A DNA stretch of 64,000 bases from the human T2T-CHM13v2.0 reference genome, Homo sapiens. The notes under the pieces are model-generated. The model saw only the letters and a list, made by a program, of their open reading frames with translations, had not been told where the DNA came from and did not search any database. Location of the stretch: assembly GCA_009914755.4 (NCBI GenBank), contig CP068257.2, positions 13,184,001 to 13,248,000 on the forward strand, written 5' to 3'. A program made the translations under genes and the position numbers. Positions 93-63,766 of this stretch are shown here, piece after piece; position 1 is the stretch's first letter, and each line of letters starts with the position of its first letter.

Positions 93-1690
93 AAAATCTT
101 AGGCATCAGAATTTCAGAGAGTTTATAAAAGATGCCATATAAACTCTTTAATGGAATTTCAACTATTGTAAATTCTTAAGTAGTCGTAAAAAAAAACAGA
201 TTTCAATTTAAGGAAATTCTGCCCCAGATATTTTATTTACAGAAATTACAAAATCACAAGTTCCATCCCATTGCATTTTAAATACCACACTTTGTTTTAA
301 AATCTGAGGATCTGAGCAGGCTGAAGCCTGGTCTGGCCTATGGTCCCTGGGGTTGGAGAATTTGTGTGGCTATGCTTTCAAATCAACTGAAATGTGTCCC
401 TATCCTTGCTCTTCTCCTCTTACCCTGCCACTGCCAAAGTACTGGGCTCAGAATCCTGACTCTCCTTCCTTTCACTCCCTTCTCTAGGTCCTGCTGTGTT
501 CGCAGGAAGCTGTGGTCTGCAGCTGCTGTCCTGGACACAGGACAACTTGGTTAGGGCTTCAGCCCCTATCTGGACTCTAATTCCACCTTGGTGTGTTTAT
601 TGCAGCTTCGTGCATCCTTATCATTTTTCATCTGGTCTCTGGCAGGCAGAGTGTATGATGACTTCTCTGTCCCTCCTTGTCTTTAACTCAAATGATGATC
701 TTCTCTTTGGTGTTTTTTTTTTCCCCCGTTTTTCTCAGCTGTGCTGTTGTGAGAGTGCTTCATCACTGGAGCCTTCAGATGAACTAGGTGAGGGACTCTG
801 GGCCCCACAACCCTTCTCCCAGAGCTGTCTTGTGGCATCATTCAAGTCCTCTGGGTCAGGCAAGGGAGAGAGGCAGGAAGTTGGTAATTTCATTATTGAT
901 CAACTCGAATAGTTCTTCCCTTGATCTTGATTCCATTAAAATTGTCAATGGCCAAAATGGTACTCCTCTGGCCCTCATAGCAGGTAAAACAGAATCCTTT
1001 GGACGCATTCCTGACTTCCTGTCCTGTACAAGATTAATGTTAATATATCTCCCCTTATTGAGAGGCTACACAGATGACATCACCTTCAGTCAGTTCATAA
1101 CAAAGCCCTCCCGGGAACATCCAGGAGCTGTCCTTGTACACAGAGGACGGGATGCTTTAGGAGCCACTGCAATATCAGCCTGCCTTTTATTCAGCTTCAG
1201 GGCTAGCTTCACATTGATTAATGAGTTCATCTTTGTGGGGTGGAGTGCCACACAATGGTGCCTGGGTGGCTGAACCATGCCCACTTCTAGAGAACAGACA
1301 AGGGAGGATACCACTTCTGGTGGAGGCCCTCAGGGCACCTCCACAGTCTCTTCTCCACCCTCCCCACATGCCTTCCTCTGCCATTTAATGTTCAACTTTT
1401 CATGGTAGTCCAGTCACCACACAGAAGTATGCTACTGCTCACTAGTTGGAAAGATCTAAACTAGTCGAGTTTCAAAATAGGATGGCCAAGCTGCAACAAA
1501 GACTTCTGTTCTGAAATGGTTCCTGATCATGGAAGTTTTAACTCTACTATTTCACCTTTTGTCCAGGTAATAAATCCTTTCGAGAGCCTATAACATGTTA
1601 TGTTCACTTGGGCCAAATTATGAAAGGTAAATATTTGATGTGTTACAAAGAAAAAACTTAGACTAAGCTTTGCTTTGAGTGTACCTATTA

Positions 1691-2220
1691 TATTAGTCAG
1701 GGATCTACAGAAAAACAGAACCAACAAGATGTTTGTATAGATAGGTACATTCATTATAAGGAATTGGCCCAGGGATTATGGAAGCTAGTGAGTCCCAAGA
1801 TCTGCAGTCGGATAAGTAAACACCCAGGAGATCCAAGGTTAAGTTCCAGTCTGAGTCCAAAGGCCTGAGAACCGGGAAAGCCAATATTATATGCTACAGG
1901 TTCTAAACCCAAGAAGAGCCAATGTTACAATTCAAGTCTGAAGAATGGAAAGAGCAATATCCCAGATCAAAACAGTCAGACATAAGGAGTTCCCTCTTGC
2001 TCCTGGGAAGGTCAGGCCTTGTTCTATGTATGCCTTCAATTGATTGGGGTGGGACCACCAACATTGTGGAAAACAATCTGCTTTACTCAGTCCACCAATT
2101 CAAATGTCAGTCTCATCCAAAAACACCCTCACAGACACACCCAAAATAATGTCTGACCTAAAATCTACACACTCTGTGGCCTAGTCAAGTTGACACATAA
2201 AATGAATCATCATAGCTACC
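1691..2220 (+). mobile_element. Ancient interspersed repeat (LTR-like; family not confidently assigned)
   Basis: Begins tattagtcagggatctacagaaaaacagaacc... and ends ...cagtcaagttgacacataaaat. This matches a widely recurring human repeat consensus that I recognise but cannot name with certainty. Confidence 0.45.
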
Positions 2221-3824
2221 ATGTTTCCAGATTGAATGAGCCCTAAGCAGTAATAATTCTGCTCCATATTATACCTATTTGAGTGATATAGAAGGTGATT
2301 CTTTGCTCTTAAAAATGGCAGTTCTCAGGGTGAATATAGTACACATTTGTGTGCACAGCTTCAAATGGCACTAAGAAACCAGTAGCCACTATCAGTGGCA
2401 AAGGCTCCAGTGTGTAGCTGCAGTGGCATTTTGGAGAGCCTTATTTTGATTTGATATCTCAAAATAAGCCAACCAATTTCTTATAAAACTATTGCTACTT
2501 CTGTAACCCACAACTCTGTAAAAACTGTGATTGTTCCCCCAAAGATGTGCTTCACTTGGTATTTCAAGTCATATGATGGCAATCCCATTGAAAGTTCCAT
2601 AAAACAGTCACTTAGGTGTATTGCTCATACTCAGTCTACTCACTAGTCCAACCTATTCGACTTGAAACTCAGTAAATAATTGCAGACTTGTCATCCTGCC
2701 TTTATTTCCTTTATATCATTATTGTTAGCACAGATAAAAGGACTCAAAAATGGCACATAATAGGGAAGCTGAATATGTCTTAGAAGTCCCTTACACATCC
2801 GTAGGACAGAAAATAAACCTTACCATTGTTCAATTTGACCCACAATTAAATATCATCTTAAAAGCAAGATATATGTATTTCCCAGTGAAGACAGCAGGCT
2901 TCTTGATTTATTTTACTTATGAAAATAGACTAATGTAACATATGCTTCGGTGACAATTTATCATGGATATAGGTGGTAAAATATAACACTGAGTATTGGA
3001 GAAAGATTTGAAAAAATACTCCAGTATAGTAAAAATACTTAGTCCAGGAGCTTAAATAGGTTACCCCAGGCCTTTTCCCTAGTAAATATTTAAGGAATTC
3101 TATACCCTTGACACCGTATGGTAATCAGGAAGTGGAAGTCAACAACTTTAACTTATAAATATGAAAGGCATTGAGATGGAGGAACAGAAAAGGAAAAAAT
3201 CCTCTCTGGCATTGGTATTACTTGTATCATCATCAACAAGACAAGTTACAAACGTTTCATAGAAAGACAGCGGGAGGAAAAGGCTTTACAAAAGTATAAG
3301 TAAATAGGAACACACCGCTATCCATATAAATCCCCTCTTTCTTTAAAAAGTCCACTTCACCAAAAAAGCCACATTAGGCACCGATGGCCCAGTGCCTAGG
3401 GCCCACAATACTTAAGATGCTCATGAAAATGTCTTAATTTCTTTTACATAAAAAAAACTTTCATGTTAAAGAAAATATTTTACTATATAGTAACCTATTG
3501 TTATATTAACGTAATGATAAAACATAATTTTTAGGTTCCTTTTGTGTGTGGGTATGAGGTTAGGACCTATGAAGACAAAAGTGCCTGGGGCCCATAAAAG
3601 TCATAATATGGTCCTGTTCCTAGATTCATGTTTGTCTTATATGGCCCTATTTCTCTGGCCATAGCTGGCTAGAATAGGGATAGACCTTGACCTAAGTCAA
3701 GCCTATCAAATTCTGCCTCCTATGAGTTTAGAATTGAGATTTAAACTTGCTTGGTAGTGCTAGATAGTGTGTGAGGACCTATATCCTTTGAAGTAGTCAT
3801 GAGTAAAAAAGTGACAAAAGATCG

Positions 3825-12769: not shown

Positions 12770-13495
12770 TGTGCTCCTCCGCCAGCGTGCTTCCCCGCCA
12801 GCATGGTCCCCGACAGGTGCTCCTCCGCCAGCGTGGTCCTCGGCTAGGTGCTCCTCTGCCAGCGTGCTCCCCCGCCAGATGCTCCTCTGCCAGCGGGGTC
12901 CTCAGTCAGGTGCTCCTCTGCCAGCGTGCTCCCCCGCCAGGTGCTCCTCTGCCAGCGTGATCCTCGGCCAGGTGCTCCTCCACCACTGTGCTCCCCCGCC
13001 AGCGTGCTCCTCTGTCAGGTGCTCCCCCGCCAGGTGCTCCTCTGCCAGCATGCTCCCCCGCCAGCATGCTCCTCTGCCAGGTGCTCCCCCACCAGGTGCT
13101 CCTCCTTCAGATGCTCCTCCAGCAGGTGCTCCCCCGCCAGCGTGCTCCTCCACCAGCGTGCTCCTCCTCCAGCGTGCTCCTCCACCAGGTGCTCCTCCAC
13201 CAGCGTGCTCCTCCACTGCTCCTCCGCCAGCGTGCTCATGCGCCAGGTGCTCCTTCGCCAGCGTGCTCCTCCGCCAGGTGCTCCTCCTCCAGGTGCTCCC
13301 CCACCAGCGTGCTCCTCCGCCAGGTGCTCCTCCACCAGCGTGCTCCTCCACTGCTCCTCCGCCAGCGTGCTCATCCGCCAGGTGCTCCTTTGCCAGCGTG
13401 CTCCTCCACTGCTCTTCTGCCAGCGTGCTCCTCCGCCAGGTGCTTCTCCGCTAGGTGCTCCTCTGCTAGGTGCTCCCCTGCTAGGTGCTCCCCTC
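12770..13495. repeat. GC/CpG-rich minisatellite with an alternating 15/16-bp unit (ccag[c]gtgctcctccg), about 47 copies
   Basis: Direct reading shows ccagcgtgctcctccgccaggtgctcctcc repeated with point variants. C-rich on the + strand and G-rich on the - strand. It generates the 237-275 aa Pro/Ala/Ser-rich and Gly/Ala-rich ORFs in the track. Confidence 0.92.
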
Positions 13496-36200: not shown

Positions 36201-37394
36201 ATAGGAGATTATGAGAAGAACACAAGAGCACATTTATAAGTAGTTTTCATGATTCATGTTATCACTGAAACCAGATGCTATTCTGAATCAAACAACCCTG
36301 AAGTGATGTGCAATTCTAATATCTGCTTAATTAATCAAAATATTCATTAATACGTAAGAAAACACATTCTGTTTGTGTTTTAGAGTACACATTTATCACA
36401 TGCTCATAAATACTTAAATACAGGAGGTATGCTTGGCAGATAAATTATTAACTTTTCAGAGATCTGCAGATTTTAGAAAGTTTTGGGGGGAAATTAAATT
36501 TTAATAAAACAGCATTTTACTTAATTACAGAAAAATCAAATAAAATTATTTTCTAGATTCTGAAAGAAAAACAAATAGATTATAAACTGTAAATGCCCTT
36601 TGTCTTATGATAACCTTGCTAGCTTTAGTAATTGTATAATATTATGAACCTTGGGAAACAGTGCAAAGCATCAAAAATCTTATATTTACATATATATTGA
36701 CTCTAATAAACCTATATCTGTATTAGTGTTTAATATTGATTAAAATTGCTTATAAGTTTATATTAATAGGAAATACATCCTGATTTAGTAGGATTTTAAT
36801 AACTACAATCATGTATTGCTTAACGATGGGAATATGTTCTGATAAATGCATCAGTAGGCAATTTCATCATGTGAACATCAATATCATGGTGTACTTACAC
36901 AAACCTAGATGGTATAGCCTACTGCTTCTAAACTACATACCTGTACAGCATGTTACTGTATGTAGATGACTGTAACACAATGGAAAGTATTTATGCATCT
37001 CAACATAGAAAAGATACGGTAAAAATATGGTATTATAATCTTATGGAACCATCATCATATATGCAGTCTATTCACTAAAATGTCATTTTGCGTGATAAGG
37101 GCATTTACTCCAATATTGCTTTATTAGATTGGCATCCTTGCTGACTCAAGACCCTTTCCTTATGTACTGATGACCACCTATTGATTCTCAGAAAGTCTTA
37201 TATTCTCACTCTTGTGCCACCCTCAGTTATTTCCCTCTGCCTTTCACAGCTAACTGTCCACTTCACACCACTAATCAACTGCTGTGAACTTGGCTTTTAC
37301 CTTGATCTCAGCTCTTCCAAAAGTCACCAATCATTTCCTAAATGCAAAATATAATGACCTTTTCCCTGTGTCCATCATACTTTGTATAACATTT

Positions 37395-55960: not shown

Positions 55961-56270
<310 letters not shown>

Positions 56271-56690: not shown

Positions 56691-58467
56691 TCTAAACCTT
56701 CTATTAACTGAAGAAAGAAAAACCAACTCAAGGCAGGGAAACTTTATGCTTTATATAGACGGCAACTTTAAAGAGCAATTGTTTAAGTTACATTTTAATT
56801 GCAAATGGATGTATTCTAATTCATTCTCTGAGCAAATTATGGGTCTTCACATCAGATAAAGAAGCTCTATATGGAAAGAGGTAGAGAAAGTGCCCCAAAA
56901 CTTATTGGCCTCGTAGTCCCAACCACAGGCAAGAGAAATTATTAGCTCAGCTTTGGGGCAAGATTAGACAGCCCCACCTCAGTTCAGGTCACCTCCAATC
57001 TGATTTCCTAAGAAAGCTCACAGTATGCTAAGAACCTAGTCACACATCCAAGCCAATTTTGGGATTAGCCTAGACCTGTAGTCCAGACTGATAGCCTCGA
57101 TTTTATATTTTTGATGATATAGACGGTCAAATATACATAATTATTTTTTTATTATATTATATAACGTAATTATGTATACTTGACTATGTACATTTTATGA
57201 AATCAGAATCCATGGATTGTCCCCATAATGATTGTCCCTCCAGGGAATAAGTTTTAAGATTCAGATTAATCCATTTGGGGCATCTAAAAACGCTCAACAC
57301 CCTATTCTTTCACTCTACCCATGCTGGAATAAGACCAACTTCAAGATTCAGGACACATGGCTCCATGTAACCAGAGATCCCATGCCAAGGGACAGTAGGC
57401 AAAAATAGACACAGGTGGATATGTATGACTTCTTTCCATGAGCTTCCAGGCCTCCAAGGGACAAAATTCTTGATTTGGTGCCAAAATGTTCTATTTGTCT
57501 TATTAGAAAAAATTACTCAGTAAGGTGATATACCCCAGGAGGAGAGAACTGTTCTCACATTATCCAAATAATTATTTAAGTCTATACATTTTCACTGAGG
57601 GTTTTAATGATGAAATTATTAAGACGTTGTATGAGGTGAGCTGTCTTAGAAAAATTTGCTGCCTATTAATGGCTTTCCCATGCATTATTTTTGCTTTCAT
57701 GTCTTCTAAGTCTAAAAGCTTCTCCCACATTTCTTTAGATCATGGCTTATGTTTGATAATATTGTGAGATACATCTAATCTCCTGTTAACATTTGTATAA
57801 AGTGCATTTCCTATCTCTGCATGACATTGTTCTACCCTCTTTGAAGACATCAGCTTTGTGATAGGTGGCATTTGATATTGTGACTAACCTAACATCTACT
57901 GTACGAAGGGTAATAATACAATACTAACAGTTATTATACACTTATAATGTGCCAGGCACCTTCTAAGCTTATTTTGTTTTATAATTCAGTGTATAATATA
58001 TGTTAATTTTCATAACATCAAGGAATAGATAATTTCTTTATTTCCATTCTATGAACAAGGAAACTGAAATTAAACAACTCCGCCAGTAGCATGCCACTAG
58101 CAGGTCCAACATCCAAATCCAGAGATGATCCAGCATTATGATGCAAAATATACCAATGGCGCTATTCTCACTTAACAGAGACCATTTGGAAAGAAGTAAT
58201 AAAAGGATATGAACTGAACACAGTTACAGAATCACAGACTCCTAAGGCCAAAACGAACTTCAATATCCTCTAGTTTTTCTTGCCCAAAATATCAATCCAA
58301 GAAATTAACTGGTTACTTATTAAAAGTAGACAGCCAGGAAAAAGGAGAACTGAATATTTCAAAACAAATAGTCCAAATGGACAAACAAGCTCTGAACAGA
58401 GCCACTTTTAGAAGGAGGAGAGAGAACGTTAAGGCATTTATGAATAAAAGGCAGACTTCTTTAGAAG

Positions 58468-58690
58468 GAGTCGCCATATTGGCTCACTACAACTCCGCCT
58501 CCCGGGTTCAAGTGATTCTCCTGCTGGGATTACAGGCGCCCCCCACCACGCCCGGCTAGTTTTTGTATTTTTAGTAGAGACGGGGTTTCACCATGTTGGT
58601 CAGGCTGGTCTCAAACTCCTGACCTCGTGATCCGCCCGCCTCAGCCTCCCAAAGTGCTAGGATTACAGGCGTGAGCACGCGCCTGGCCAC
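58468..58690 (-). mobile_element. Alu fragment (antisense, lacking the poly-T head)
   Basis: ggctcactacaactccgcctcccgggttcaagtgattctcctgc...ggtttcaccatgttggtcaggctggtctcaaactcctgacctcgtgatccgcccgcctcagcctcccaaagtgctaggattacaggcgtgagc. Confidence 0.9.
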
Positions 58691-59143: not shown

Positions 59144-62100
59144 TAAAGGAAACCAAGAGAAATCCCAAGAATTCAGACAAATGAACTTTGTCTTGGTGCT
59201 CGGATACTGGTTGGGGGAAAAAGTCCGATGATTGTGCCAAGTAGAATCTGAGAATTGAAACTTGACAGGCCCCCATCAACTCTGCAGGAATAGAGATTTT
59301 TACCTCTCCAAGCTTAAAATTGATAATAAGTAATACAGAGATACACCATGCACTTGCCCTTTTAAAAAGTTTGAAAATGAAGAAACAAATGCTTTCTTGG
59401 ATCTGAAACTAGCTAGAGAAATTAGAATCATGTATAGTGTATGCTTAGGCCAAAGAGAAGAGATTAGCTATAGCACTCCTGGAATCTGATGTTGGAATGA
59501 AATGTAATTTCACCTGCATTTTTTAAATAATTAGGGAGTATGTGTGAGTCACAAGCAATTGACTCTCACATGATTGACACTCTGTGGGAGCAAGCAGTGA
59601 AAAAGAAATGGTGAGCACCTGATCCTATGATAATCATCACTAGCATTTATTGAATGGTTACTACGTGGCAGGCACACTGCTTAGTGTTTGACATCCATTA
59701 TCTCAATTATTCTCAGTCTGTGAGTGATGGTATAAACTACTTCAGAAACATCTGCTGTTTCAGAAAGAAAATGCTCTAAGGTGTAGGGCAGATTATCAGC
59801 CAGGGTCACAGTTCAGATGAGTTCCAAAGAAAGCTTATCTAAAATATTCTGATGAAAATGTGGCTTCCATTTAAAACCGAATGGGGGCCAAGAGAATTGT
59901 AAAGGAAACTCGAGGATGCAATCTATTCTCTGCCCCTCAATCCCTGAGCCAGCCAGGGATACTTATTTTCTCCTAAACCTAAAAATAGTCACGCTAACAT
60001 TGGTTTCAGACTCTCAGAATCACCAGCTCTGAGACTACAGAGATCTTCTCACTCTTTCCTATCTCCTGGTCCTTAAACCCGCTTCCTTACCTTGCTTCTG
60101 TGCCTTGCTAATTATAACTGCTTTTTGTTTGTTTGTTTCCTGATTCCTGTGGCTCAATCTGTGTTCCTAGGGCCTTCATCTGTGGTACCCACCTGGGATT
60201 TTAGACTCATGTGGGGGGTCTAAAGCTTTGGCTTAAGTTTAGTCTGAAACTCTCCTAGGCTTTGGTCCACAACCTCCTGCCACCCAACATGGTGCTGACA
60301 GGGAGGACAATCTGTAGCCCATGAAGATTAGAGCTATGCTATTAATCAATGATCTTTCCCAACTAAAATACTTAGTTCAGGGCTCTTCGCACAATGCTCA
60401 AAGTACTTTCTGTTCAATAAAGGCTTGTTGACTGTATTTACAACACATGCTGTACTATGAACTGCATACCAAAGTCCAAATTACAACATATAACCTCTAT
60501 GACAAGAACGAGTAAAAAAATAAAACCACAGCCTTGGAGGGATGCCAGATGATGCTGGACCCATGAAAAACTCCAGAGAGGAAACAAAAGGTACTGAACA
60601 GAAATGGAGTGCACACACCGTAACCTTGTTCTCTCATCTTTTGTGAACTATGACGGGTCACCTTTGCAAAATTATAAGCCTTTTGAGAGTAGGGTACAAT
60701 ACAGCTTCAACGGCAGGGTGCCTACAGTCCCCATCACTCCTCCTGCCACCAGGGAACTTGCAGGAAGGGAGCTTTCCTGTTAGCTTTCCTCCCTGGTAAA
60801 GCACTGACCACAGCCTTGAATGCCACAAAGCCACATTGGGAAAAATATGAAGTTTTGTCCTACCCACATTATATCTGGACAGATAGTTATTTAGAAAAGA
60901 ATCATTCTGCATTTTATGTATTATAACATTGGCTATACAGGATCTCTCTCTCTCATCACCCAAGTCTGGTTCCTTCCTAGTCTACATCTGCCTCTTGCTC
61001 CTCAAAGAGCTTACTTTTCCTCTCGGTTTCTTTAAGCAATAGCTCTCCTTACTATGTGGTGTGATGGTTAATTTTATGTGTCAGATTGGCTAGCCTGTAG
61101 TAACTAGTTATTCAAATATGAATCTAGGTATGGCCATAGAGATATTTTGTAGGTGAGTTTAATATCTATAATCATGGACTAACCTTTTAAAAAATCTATA
61201 ATCAGTTGACTTTAGGTAAAGGACATTATCCTCAACAATGTAGATGAGCCTCATTCAATCAGTTGAAAGGTTTAAGGGCAAAAATAAGTTTCCCTGAGGA
61301 AGAAATTCTGCTTCAAGATTGCAATATCAGCTCCTGCCTAAGAATTTTCAGCCTGCTGGCCTGCCCCGATCCTATAGATTTTGGACTTACCAGCCTCCAC
61401 AATTGCATACTGAAAGAAGTCTCTCTCCATACATAGGCATGCCTTGCTTAACAGAGGCACATTCTGAGAAATGCATCCTAAGGCAATTTCATCATTTTGT
61501 GAACATCATACAGTATACTTACACAAACATAAATGGTATAGCCTGCTACACCCCTGGGCTATATGGTATAGCTTATTGCTTTCAGGCTACAGACCGGTAC
61601 AGCATGTTACTGTATGGAATACTGTAGGCAATTGTAACATGATGGTAAGAATCTGTGTATCTAAGCCTAGAAAAGCTACAGTAAAAATGTGGTATTAAAA
61701 GACAAAAAAAAATTGTACTCCTGTAAAGGGCATTTACCATGAATGGAGCTTACAGAATGAGAAGTTACTTTGGGTGATTCAGTGAGTGAGTAGTGACTGA
61801 ATGTGAAGGCCGAGGATGTTACTGTATACTACTGTAGACTTTATCAACACTGTACACCAAGCTACACTATATTTATTTTTTTAATTCTTCAACAATAAAT
61901 TAATCTTCACTTACTGTAACCTTTTTATTTATAAGCTTTGTTTTTAACTTTTTGGCTATTTTGTAGGAACACTTAGCTTAAAACATAAACTCATTGTGCA
62001 ATTGTACAAAAATTCTTTCTTTATATCCTTATTCTACGAGCCATTTTCTATTTTTAATTTTTTTTTAAATTTTTGAACTTTTTTGTTAAAAACCAAGACA

Positions 62101-62256
62101 AAAACATACACATTAGCCTAGGTCTACACAGGATCAGGATTATCAAGATGTCACTAGACGATAGGAATTTTTTAGCTCCATTTTTACTTATGCAACTACT
62201 GTCATATAAGCGGGCCATCACTGACCAAAAACATGTTTATACAGCACATTAAAGTC

Positions 62257-62350
62257 TATTCATTTACTATCTTGGGGGTAAATTAGTGTTGCTGCTGGAA
62301 CCCTGACAATTTTCAAGTGAGGGAACGTGGAGAAATACAAATATATTTTT
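62257..62350 (+). repeat. Left arm of a ~90-bp inverted repeat flanking the AT-rich minisatellite
   Basis: cattaaagtctattcatttactatcttgggggtaaattagtgttgctgctggaaccctgacaattttcaagtgagggaacgtggagaaatac. Confidence 0.85.
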
Positions 62351-62424
62351 ATATGTTTTACACATAAAATATATAATAATTATACTTTTATTATTATATT
62401 ATATATATTTATCCTAAAATAGAT

Positions 62425-63290
62425 AAATGTTATATACATTTATGTTTTTATACATAAAATAAATATATGTTATATACATTTATGTTTTTATAAATAAAAT
62501 AAATATATGTTATATACATTTGTTTCTATAAAATAAATATGTTATATACATTTATGTTTTTATAAATTAAATATATGTTATATACATTGTGTTTTTATAA
62601 ATAAAATAAATATATGTTACATACTTTTTTTATAAATAAAATAAATATGTTATATACATTTATGTTTTTATAAATAAAATAAATATATGCTATATACATT
62701 TGTTTTTATAAATAAAATAAATGTTATATACATTTATGTTTTTATAAATAAAATAAATATGTGTTATATATTTATGTTTTTATAAAATAAATATGTGTTA
62801 TATATTTGTTTTTATAAATAAAATAAATATGTGTTATATATTCATGTTTTTATAAATAAAATAAATATGTGTTATATATTCATGTTTTTATAAATAAAAT
62901 AAATATGTGTTATACATGTTTTTATAAATAAAATAAATGTGTTATATATTTGTTTTTATAAATAAAATAAATATGTGTTATATATTTATGTTTTTATAAA
63001 ATAAATATGTGTTATATATTTATGTTTTTATAAGTAAAATTAATATGTGTTATATATTTATGTTTTTATAAATAAAATAAATACGTGTTATATATTTATG
63101 TTTTTATAAATAAAATAAATACGTGTTATATATTTATGTTTTTATAAATAAATACGTGTTATATATTTATGTTTTTATAAATAAAATAAATACGTGTTAT
63201 ATATTTATGTTTTTATAAATAAAATAAATATGTGTTATATATTTATGTTTTTATAAATAAAATAAATATATGTTATATATATTTATATAT
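62425..63290. repeat. AT-rich minisatellite, unit ~40 bp (gttatatacatttatgtttttataaataaaataaatatat), about 22 copies of 34-44 bp
   Basis: Direct reading shows the regular unit, for example 62429-62468 and 62469-62508 are near-identical 40-mers. Variants differ by small indels (missing aaataa, tg/ca swaps). Confidence 0.92.
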
Positions 63291-63292
63291 AT

Positions 63293-63378
63293 ATTTCAAT
63301 TTTCTCACTTGTAAATTGTCAGGGTTCCAGCAACAAAAATAATTTACCCTCCAGATTTCAAATGAATAGACTTTAATG
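63293..63378 (-). repeat. Right arm of the inverted repeat (reverse complement of 62257-62350 at about 85% identity)
   Basis: The reverse complement of atttcaattttctcacttgtaaattgtcagggttccagcaacaaaaataatttaccctccagatttcaaatgaatagactttaatg is cattaaagtctattcatttgaaatctggagggtaaatta-tttttgttgctggaaccctgacaattt-acaagtgag. Confidence 0.85.
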
Positions 63379-63766
63379 AAGGAACAATGGATAGAAGAGT
63401 TGGCAGGATTAAGGAAACAAAAAAGGGCAGGTTAGGCACCAGAGACTAGCAACAGAGGGAAGGCATTACCCCTCTAGAGCTGAAAGGGTAAGAGGAAGAA
63501 AGAATTTGCTGAAAGCTGGACCTTGGGTGGAGCCTCCTCACAGGACCTGTGGTCAGAGAGGGACACAGCTATCTCCAGACAGGCGGCACTGAAGCAGTGA
63601 GGGGGCAAGAAAGACTCTGATCTCCCTCTCCTCCTACTCTCCAATTTCTTGTCCAGTGAGTCAGGATTCAATTGGTAGAACCCAAACAGAGTTGGCTAGG
63701 AATAGAGCATGGCAAGGCAGAGAAGAGGAGAGAATGGGTCTTCCAGGGAGCGGGGTGTGGGGAGGG

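What the first reader, a model, noticed from the sequence alone, without database searches (positions are those of the whole stretch)
62257..63378. A 0.9-kb AT-rich 40-bp minisatellite bracketed by ~90-bp inverted repeats (hairpin or MITE-like architecture)
Seen directly: about 22 tandem copies of a ~40-bp AT-rich unit lie between two ~90-bp arms that are reverse complements of each other at about 85% identity (62257-62350 versus 63293-63378). Both arms begin with cattaaagtctattcattt at their outer ends. The ordinary Alu, L1 and MaLR annotation does not explain this structure. Three readings are possible: (a) a non-autonomous DNA-transposon relic whose interior expanded into a satellite; (b) a stem-loop or cruciform-prone element; (c) an unstable, hypervariable locus that could stall replication forks. 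All three are inference.
Basis: seen in the sequence. Interest (0 to 1): 0.55.

Follow-up and report, generated by a model that had tools for sequence, protein, structure and literature searches.

The report
AT-rich minisatellite between inverted LTR ends
A 0.87-kb, 90% A+T minisatellite lies between two ~100-base inverted arms, but the arms are the tail ends of an old retrotransposon LTR made alike by a local copying event, not the ends of a DNA transposon, so the locus is an ordinary, probably length-variable, by-product of repeat decay.

Summary
There are 23.7 tandem copies of a 38-40 bp unit (62415-63284, 90% A+T). They lie between inverted arms at 62247-62354 and 63275-63378. The arms are 88% identical over a 75-nt core (E 1e-22) and identical over the outer 19 nt.

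The MITE reading does not hold. The left arm is the 3' end of an LTR (MaLR-type by my memory) whose 5' part lies at 61060-61431. A Tigger-like DNA transposon (61432-62254) splits that LTR. With the Tigger removed, the two parts align colinearly with an independent LTR copy in the window (p 0.003-0.015).

The right arm also matches that LTR end, and LTR similarity seems to continue about 50-120 nt beyond it (p 0.009-0.03). The arms resemble each other (85-88%) more than they resemble the other copy (65-68%). They stay identical 6 nt past the LTR end. Both carry CATTAAAG, which is best read as the last 8 nt of the Tigger.

Best model: a local inverted copying event (template switch or conversion) across a hairpin-prone AT tract that later expanded. 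Cruciform extrusion is unlikely with a 920-nt spacer. Hypervariability is plausible but untested. No Dfam or primate data were available.

The parts
61060..61431 (+). 5' part of an old LTR (MaLR-type; the name comes from my memory, not a database), ending at the TA 61430-61431
   Evidence: It is similar to an independent in-window copy, rc(1641-2260): score 91 against a null of 44+/-7, z 6.7. Its last 60 nt match a consensus recalled from memory with score 66 against a null maximum of 40.
61432..62254 (+). Tigger-like (pogo-type) DNA transposon inserted into that LTR. Its last 8 nt (CATTAAAG, 62247-62254) form the outer tip of the left arm.
   Evidence: It shares 68% identity over 270 nt with a second copy at 36810-37038, E 2e-25. 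The LTR alignment scores best when the LTR is taken to resume at 62255. The family name and the 3'-end register rest on memory.
62247..62354 (+). Left arm. It consists of 8 nt of the Tigger end, the LTR 3' end (62255-62315) and about 39 nt past the LTR terminus (AGTGAG followed by AT-rich sequence).
   Evidence: Arm extent. Compared with the last 83 nt of LTR copy2 it scores 39/57, z 4.4, p 0.0025. In the Tigger-excised reconstruction it adds colinear score, p 0.003 and 0.015.
62355..62414 (.). Degenerate AT-rich sequence related to the array unit (decayed units at the left edge of the array)
   Evidence: The stretch 62322-62428 aligns to the unit in both orientations, p about 0.02.
62415..63284 (+). 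AT-rich minisatellite of 23 units of 32-40 nt, all in one orientation. Each unit is an imperfect palindrome.
   Evidence: TRF result and unit map. Unit self-complementarity has p 0.008, and units 12=13 and 18=19=21 are identical. The array folds at z -3.3.
63275..63378 (-). Right arm, an inverted copy of 62247-62354. The LTR terminus lies at 63310 and CATTAAAG at the outer tip.
   Evidence: Arm extent. Compared with the last 83 nt of LTR copy2 it gives z 3.2, p 0.0095.
63379..63500 (-). Possible continuation of a second, inverted LTR copy beyond the right arm (weak evidence)
   Evidence: Adding the 52-nt outer flank raises the colinear score against copy2 by 14 (p 0.009), and 120 nt raises it by 19 (p 0.028). 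The flank on its own is not significant, z 0.27.

Best explanation
The two arms are not transposon termini. They are the last ~60 nt of an old retrotransposon LTR together with a little flanking DNA, present in inverted orientation on either side of an AT-only tract.

The left copy belongs to an LTR that a Tigger-like DNA transposon later split. The right copy probably belongs to a second, tail-to-tail LTR remnant.

At some point a local inverted copying event made about 105 nt of the two sides nearly identical. The likely mechanism is replication template switching or gene conversion, nucleated by the self-complementary AT-rich tract. The left side was the donor. The copied tract ran outward through the LTR end and stopped 8 nt into the Tigger, where homology between the two sides ends. 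That explains why both arms start with CATTAAAG.

The arms have since diverged by about 12%. The AT-rich centre, whose 38-40 nt unit is itself an imperfect palindrome, has been amplified by slippage or unequal exchange to 23 units and is still turning over.

Shown: the repeat anatomy, the LTR identity of the arms, and the arms being each other's closest relatives. Inferred: the copying mechanism, its direction, its date, and ongoing instability. No cellular function is implied.
For: 1. LTR identity of the left arm.
- 61060-61431 is homologous to an independent LTR copy in the window (z 6.7).
- The left arm from 62255 aligns to that copy's last 83 nt (39/57, p 0.0025).
- After removing 61432-62254, one colinear alignment spans the junction. 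The gain is 20 (p 0.003) and 15 (p 0.015) against random window segments.
- The best resumption point is 62255.

2. The arms are sister copies.
- They are 85-88% identical to each other against 65-68% to copy2 (58/67 against 39/57, Fisher p 0.017).
- They share indels relative to copy2 and to the recalled consensus: GGGTAAATTA, GCTGG-AACCC and GAC-AATTT.
- They are identical for AGTGAG just past the LTR terminus.

3. Outside the arms the two sides are much less alike.
- Identity is 32/47 just outside the arms.
- Over the wider flanks there is no significant alignment.
- Even so, the right outer flank extends the LTR alignment (p 0.009-0.03).

4. In the right copy CATTAAAG is an insertion relative to copy2, within about 10 nt of the position of the Tigger insertion in the left copy.

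5. The unit is a quasi-palindrome (p 0.008), and multi-unit stretches fold better than shuffles (z -3.6 and -3.3). This gives a plausible fold-back nucleus.

6. Local template switching is documented to create or perfect inverted repeats in human DNA (PMC5453318).
Against: - The family names and one of the two LTR references come from my memory. The independent evidence rests on a single in-window copy, with p values of 0.003-0.03 rather than overwhelming ones.
- The arm-to-LTR alignments run through low-complexity TCTC/TATA sequence, so the register is uncertain by about 10 nt.
- The right flank alone is not detectably LTR (z 0.27). The choice between conversion of a pre-existing inverted pair and a de novo inverted duplication is therefore open.
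- Reading CATTAAAG as the Tigger end rests on a 5/8 match in register to a remembered consensus, plus the score optimum.
- A 105-nt tract is longer than the tens of bases typical of the short template switches described in PMC5453318.
- No outgroup sequence was available to show the state before the event.
Confidence: 0.6

Rival explanations
1. Two LTR copies of the same subfamily inserted independently, tail to tail, with no copying between them. The arms look alike only because they are the same part of the same subfamily. The AT-rich array simply grew in the gap.
For: Both arms match the LTR 3' end. The right outer flank extends the LTR alignment (p 0.009-0.03). MaLR-type LTRs are very abundant in primate genomes (established knowledge), so some chance pairs are expected.
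Against: The arms are 85-88% identical, against 65-68% to the other in-window copy and 32/47 between the two sides just outside the arms. Identity continues past the LTR terminus (AGTGAG). The outer 19 nt are identical, including 8 nt that are best explained as the Tigger end on the left.
Confidence: 0.13
2. De novo inverted duplication. Only the left LTR existed. A fold-back or template-switch event at the AT-rich tract wrote a new inverted copy of 62247-62354 on the far side, next to unrelated DNA. This is a sub-variant of the best explanation, listed separately because it predicts a different right flank. The best explanation's confidence of 0.6 covers a local inverted copying event in either form, so this 0.2 lies inside that 0.6 and is not additional to it.
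For: The right flank alone shows no significant similarity to the LTR copy (z 0.27) or to the left upstream LTR (z -1.7). The arms are sister copies. Template switching can create inverted repeats de novo (PMC5453318).
Against: The right outer 52-120 nt do add colinear LTR score (p 0.009-0.03). Under this model, the outer breakpoint falling 8 nt from the Tigger/LTR junction would be a coincidence.
Confidence: 0.2
3. The block 62247-63378 is a non-autonomous DNA transposon (MITE) with ~90-nt terminal inverted repeats, inserted at a TA or TTAA site, whose interior expanded into a minisatellite.
For: The inverted arms have identical 19-nt tips. TTAA/TA lies at both tips, so the joined flanks would read CATTAATG. 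A size and AT-rich interior of this kind are typical of MITEs. MITE-derived tandem arrays are known in other animals and plants (PMC6947457, table).
Against: The left arm is colinear with the split LTR. The TA/TTAA is a palindrome inside the inverted repeat, so it is a direct repeat automatically. The tips do not start with the CAG or CCC motifs usual for Tc1/pogo or piggyBac ends (established knowledge), and they are unlike the Tigger ends in the window. There is no second arm copy in 64 kb, none among the metagenome or viral contigs, and no MITE-derived miRNA family match in Rfam.
Confidence: 0.07

Closest known systems
Inverted repeats created or perfected by local replication template switching (Ripley model; four-point model of Loytynoja and Goldman, PMC5453318)
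   Same: An inverted copy of adjacent sequence sits across a short self-complementary spacer. The arms are closer to each other than to anything else. The copied tract ends where homology ends.
   Different: The tract here is about 105 nt, whereas the described events are mostly tens of bases. The event is old (about 12% divergence) and no ancestral state was seen, so the mechanism is inferred.
AT-rich minisatellites of the rare fragile sites FRA16B (33 bp) and FRA10B (~42 bp, 91% A+T) (PMC9714581)
   Same: The unit length (38-40 bp), 90% A+T content, self-complementary units and variant-rich array are all similar. In vitro, 14 FRA16B units already stall forks according to that review.
   Different: This allele is 0.87 kb, whereas fragility is reported above about 5 kb. 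The motif is not (AT)n-like. The locus could not be placed on a chromosome. Single units fold no better than shuffles.
Palindromic AT-rich repeats (PATRR11, PATRR22 and others; from established knowledge)
   Same: An AT-rich centre is flanked by less AT-rich inverted arms.
   Different: PATRRs are near-perfect, spacer-less palindromes of several hundred bases. Here the arms are 80-88% identical and are separated by 920 nt of direct repeats.
MITEs with internal tandem repeats (for example Xstir in Xenopus, and the oyster and bivalve MITE-derived satellites listed in PMC6947457)
   Same: The outward architecture is the same: inverted arms around a tandem array.
   Different: The arms here are pieces of an LTR and its flank, not transposon termini, and there is no evidence of other copies.

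Membership tests
MITE / non-autonomous DNA transposon | Terminal inverted repeats at both ends | tested here: met
   The arms are 88% identical over 75 nt and their tips are identical over 19 nt. This feature alone does not establish membership.
MITE / non-autonomous DNA transposon | Target-site duplication flanking the inverted repeats | tested here: inconclusive
   Only TA/TTAA/TWA within the palindromic CATTAA..TTAATG tips is available. There is no 8-9 bp duplication: ATACAGCA against AAGGAACA matches 4/8.
MITE / non-autonomous DNA transposon | The arms are the element's own termini, independent of neighbouring repeats | tested here: not met
   The left arm continues the LTR split by the Tigger-like insertion.
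MITE / non-autonomous DNA transposon | Multiple dispersed copies in the genome | not testable with these tools
   There are none in the 64-kb window. The metagenome hits were chance matches in bacterial-like contigs, and the viral scan found none. No human genome or Dfam search was available.
MaLR-type LTR (identity of the arms) | Sequence similarity to other LTR copies, colinear, ending at the LTR terminus (...CTGACTAATACA) | tested here: met
   Against the in-window copy rc(1641-2260), the left arm has p 0.0025 and the right arm p 0.0095. The colinear reconstruction has p 0.003 and 0.015. The family name itself is from memory and was not checked against Dfam.
Template-switch or conversion-derived inverted repeat | The arms are more similar to each other than to other family members, and similarity extends beyond the repeat-family boundary | tested here: met
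   Arm-to-arm identity is 58/67 against 39/57 for arm to copy2, p 0.017. The arms share indels. AGTGAG lies past the LTR end on both arms.
Template-switch or conversion-derived inverted repeat | An ancestral or outgroup state lacking the copied tract | not testable with these tools
   No primate genomes were reachable. Non-coding ORFs of the locus are not in the protein collections.
Fragile-site-type AT-rich minisatellite (FRA16B/FRA10B class) | A 30-45 bp unit with about 90% A+T or more | tested here: met
   The period is 38 and the array is 90.4% A+T.
Fragile-site-type AT-rich minisatellite (FRA16B/FRA10B class) | Expansion to several kilobases, and mapping to 16q22 or 10q25 | tested here: not met
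   The size part is not met: this allele is 0.87 kb, against more than 5 kb reported for fragility (PMC9714581). The chromosomal position could not be determined, so the mapping part is untestable here.
PATRR | A near-perfect palindrome with no or a minimal spacer | tested here: not met
   Arm identity is 80-88%, and 920 nt of direct repeats lie between the arms.

The most novel reading that the evidence does not exclude
The locus may be a natural record of a mid-sized (~105 nt) replication template switch, nucleated by an AT-only quasi-palindromic tract between inverted LTR remnants. Its tract stopped 8 nt into a transposon because homology ended there. The same tract may still be a hypervariable, fork-stalling VNTR of the FRA16B/FRA10B class that could behave as an undescribed rare fragile site in people carrying expanded alleles.
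Probability: 0.1. Interest if true: 0.5.

Novelty: new member of a known kind. Interest (0 to 1): 0.25.

Why it matters
It matters mainly as a caution. An architecture of inverted arms around a tandem array looks like a MITE, but here it is assembled from pieces of resident repeats: an LTR end, a Tigger junction and an AT-rich tract. If the copying model is right, the locus is a tidy example of how hairpin-prone AT-rich DNA can promote inverted copying between nearby diverged repeats and then expand into a VNTR. Practically, a 0.9-kb, 90% A+T array of self-complementary units is likely to be length-polymorphic and hard to sequence or genotype. It would be a candidate site of replication difficulty only if much larger alleles exist.

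Tried and rejected
- Other arm copies. I searched the window with up to 3 mismatches and with blastn at word size 7. Only the two arms appeared, plus a non-extending 3-mismatch hit at 57573.
- Arm 18-mer in metagenome contigs. The 24 hits are all bare 18-mer matches in unrelated contigs. The viral contig scan gave 0. I did not scan genome contigs because the expected yield from bacterial assemblies was nil.
- Human or primate alleles through flanking ORFs. The exact look-ups and one homology search found nothing on record.
- Rfam at gathering and at E<=10 thresholds, to catch MITE-derived miRNA families. There were no matches.
- Arms as Tigger-related inverted repeats. There was no similarity (p 0.39-0.99 across the eight arm/end comparisons).
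- Full-text search for arm and unit strings. No papers matched.
- FRA10B motif. No paper I could read prints it, and two look-ups of the Loh 2018 paper failed, so identity with FRA10B is untested.
- Higher-order structure. The TRF period of 254 matches no better than period 38, so I rejected it.
- A larger ancient palindrome covering the whole LTR. I rejected this because the left upstream LTR and the right flank show no significant similarity.
- Naming the chromosomal locus from ORFs. I abandoned this because the long ORFs are repeat-derived.

Full report
**What is there.** The window looks human: it contains Alu pairs and an L1 ORF2-like fragment. TRF reports one array at 62415-63284 with period 38, 23.7 copies, 85% matches and score 988. 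Cutting it at the GTTATAT anchor gives 23 units of 32-40 nt plus a truncated 24th, all in one orientation. The array is 9.6% G+C.

The array is bracketed by an inverted repeat.
- Ungapped, the arms are 62247-62351 / 63274-63378 (105 nt, 78% complementary).
- Gapped, 62247-62354 / 63275-63378 gives 87/108.
- The core 62247-62321 / 63378-63304 is 88% identical over 75 nt, E 1.3e-22.
- The outer 19 nt are identical.
- The arms are 33-37% G+C against 9.7% for the interior, so the similarity is not an AT-rich artefact.

The left coordinate is off by 10 nt: the arm starts at 62247.

**The array.**
- Units 1-9 are a 40-nt type (…ATACATTT…ATATAT). Units 10-23 are a 38-nt type (…ATATTT…ATATGT).
- A CpG-bearing variant (…ATACGT) is confined to units 18-21. 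Units 12=13 and 18=19=21 are identical.
- Mean identity falls only from 0.88 between neighbours to 0.85 at distance 20.
- The TRF period of 254 matches no better than period 38, so there is no higher-order repeat.
- The unit is itself an imperfect palindrome (ATATTTATGTTTTTATAAATAAAATAAATAT; self-complementarity p 0.008 against shuffles).
- Single units fold no better than shuffles. Three units fold at -14.6 kcal/mol (z -3.6) and the whole array at -104.6 against -90.4±4.3 (z -3.3). Hairpin potential is real but modest.
- The ~90 nt between the left arm and the array resemble the unit in both orientations (p about 0.02). I read them as decayed units.

**What the arms are.** I first treated them as possible transposon termini. 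The tips read caTTAAagtct… on both sides, so a TA, TTAA or TWA duplication is formally possible. However, a palindromic tetramer inside an inverted repeat is automatically also a direct repeat, and no 8-9 bp duplication flanks the block.

The sequence to the left of the left arm (61432-62254) is a Tigger-like DNA transposon. It is 68% identical over 270 nt to a second copy at 36810-37038. The name Tigger7 is from my memory. The arms do not resemble its ends.

The sequence upstream of that transposon (61060-61431) is an LTR.
- It matches an independent copy on the minus strand at 1641-2260 (score 91 against 44±7, z 6.7).
- Its last 60 nt match a MaLR-type 3' consensus that I recalled from memory (score 66, null maximum 40). 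The in-window copy supports that recalled sequence: its 3' region reads ...GGTTCTGTTTTTCTGTAGATCCCTGACTAATATA, closely like the recalled ...GGTTCTGTTTCTCTGGAGAACCCTGACTAATACA.

The left arm, from 62255 onward, aligns to the last 83 nt of that independent copy and ends at the LTR terminus (39/57, z 4.4, p 0.0025). Neighbouring control segments do not.

When 61432-62254 is removed in silico, a single colinear alignment runs from the upstream LTR part through the left arm. The gain from adding the arm is 20 against the recalled consensus (p 0.003) and 15 against the in-window copy (p 0.015), judged against random window segments. The score is highest when the LTR is taken to resume at 62255.

So the left arm has three parts: the last 8 nt of the Tigger-like element (CATTAAAG), the LTR 3' end (62255-62315), and about 39 nt beyond it. 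This is incompatible with the arm being a free-standing terminal inverted repeat.

**How the two arms relate.** The right arm also matches the LTR end (46/71, z 3.2, p 0.0095). The two arms are closer to each other than to the other copy: 58/67 against 39/57, p 0.017. They share indels that the other copy and the recalled consensus lack. They remain identical for AGTGAG just past the LTR terminus.

Outside the arms the picture is different.
- The right flank alone is not detectably similar to the LTR copy (z 0.27) or to the left upstream LTR (z -1.7).
- Even so, adding the 52 or 120 nt next to the right arm extends the colinear LTR alignment (gain 14, p 0.009; gain 19, p 0.028).
- Just outside the arms the two sides are only 32/47 identical.
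- In the right copy CATTAAAG appears as an insertion relative to the independent LTR, within about 10 nt of where the Tigger sits in the left copy.

**Model.** The simplest account of all this runs as follows. Two LTR remnants lay tail to tail across a short AT-rich tract, and the left one already carried the Tigger. A local inverted copying event, either a replication template switch or gene conversion, then overwrote about 105 nt of the right side with the reverse complement of the left. It started in the self-complementary AT tract and ended 8 nt after homology is lost at the Tigger junction.

Local template switching is documented to create or perfect inverted repeats in human DNA (PMC5453318), although mostly over tens of bases. 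A purely de novo inverted duplication, with no pre-existing right LTR, is a close variant. It is favoured if the weak right-flank similarity is noise.

The arms differ at 9 of 75 core positions (K2P 0.13). At commonly used primate neutral rates this puts the event very roughly 30-60 Myr ago; this date is an inference. The identical neighbouring units show that the array has turned over far more recently.

**Structure-forming potential.** In a fold of the whole locus as single-stranded DNA, the arms pair in both the minimum-energy and the centroid structures. A construct of the 70-nt arm cores with a short loop gives -54.2 kcal/mol, z -14.7.

In duplex DNA, however, the recombinogenic effect of inverted repeats falls steeply with spacer length. 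It drops about 40-fold from a 12-bp to a 20-bp spacer for Alu pairs, and also falls with divergence. Only in long single-stranded regions do kilobase spacers and up to 25% divergence remain permissive (PMC10164571). Cruciform extrusion here is therefore unlikely. Fold-back after extensive resection cannot be excluded.

**Comparison with known AT-rich minisatellites.** The unit length and A+T content match the FRA16B/FRA10B class (33 bp and ~42 bp; 91% A+T for FRA10B). According to a review, 14 FRA16B units suffice to stall forks in vitro (PMC9714581). But fragility is reported for alleles above about 5 kb, this allele is 0.87 kb, and I could neither place the window on a chromosome nor find the FRA10B motif in print. 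PATRR membership fails because of the spacer and the arm identity.

**Limits.** No Dfam/RepeatMasker run, no human or primate genome search and no population data were available.
- The metagenome scan returned only chance matches.
- The viral scan, the exact protein look-ups and the homology search returned nothing.
- Rfam returned nothing.
- The family names are remembered, not looked up.
- The key LTR inference rests on one independent in-window copy, with p values of 0.003-0.03.
- The alignments pass through low-complexity sequence, so junction positions are good to about ±10 nt.

**Verdict.** The structure is real. It is explained by ordinary resident repeats plus a local inverted copying event and a minisatellite expansion, not by a new or relic DNA transposon. 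Interest is low to moderate.

Noticed in passing
window 12771-13491: A GC-rich minisatellite with a 15/31-bp unit (GTGCTCCTCCGCCAGC), about 47 copies and 78-80% matches. It produces long spurious ORFs (up to 275 aa) on both strands. Two minisatellites within 50 kb may hint at a minisatellite-rich, possibly subtelomeric, region.
   Followed up: partly
window 56000-56177 and 58493-58671: An inverted pair of Alu elements, about 88-90% complementary over 30-90-nt blocks and 2.3-2.5 kb apart. This inverted repeat is longer and more similar than the one under study.
   Followed up: no
window 36806-37085: A short (~280 nt) internally deleted copy of the same Tigger-like family as 61432-62254, with a TA at its 5' junction.
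   Followed up: partly
window 1641-2260 (minus strand): An independent copy of the LTR family that supplies the arms. Its 3' terminus (...CCCTGACTAATATA) lies at 1689. I used it as the in-window reference.
   Followed up: yes
window 62763-63010 (array units 10-16): The unit variants lie in mirror order (10=16, 11=15, 12=13; lengths 34, 36, 38, 38, 32, 36, 34) although all units have the same orientation. This is unexplained and may be chance.
   Followed up: no
window 63049-63195 (array units 18-21): A CpG-creating variant (ATACGT instead of ATATGT) is confined to four adjacent units, three of them identical. This marks a recent local expansion.
   Followed up: partly
window 62266-62268 versus 63357-63359: Three adjacent differences (ACT against GAA) lie just inside the identical 19-nt tips, and overall 6 of the 9 arm differences are transversions. 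This is unusual for neutral decay. It may reflect a multi-nucleotide event or an imperfect copy.
   Followed up: no
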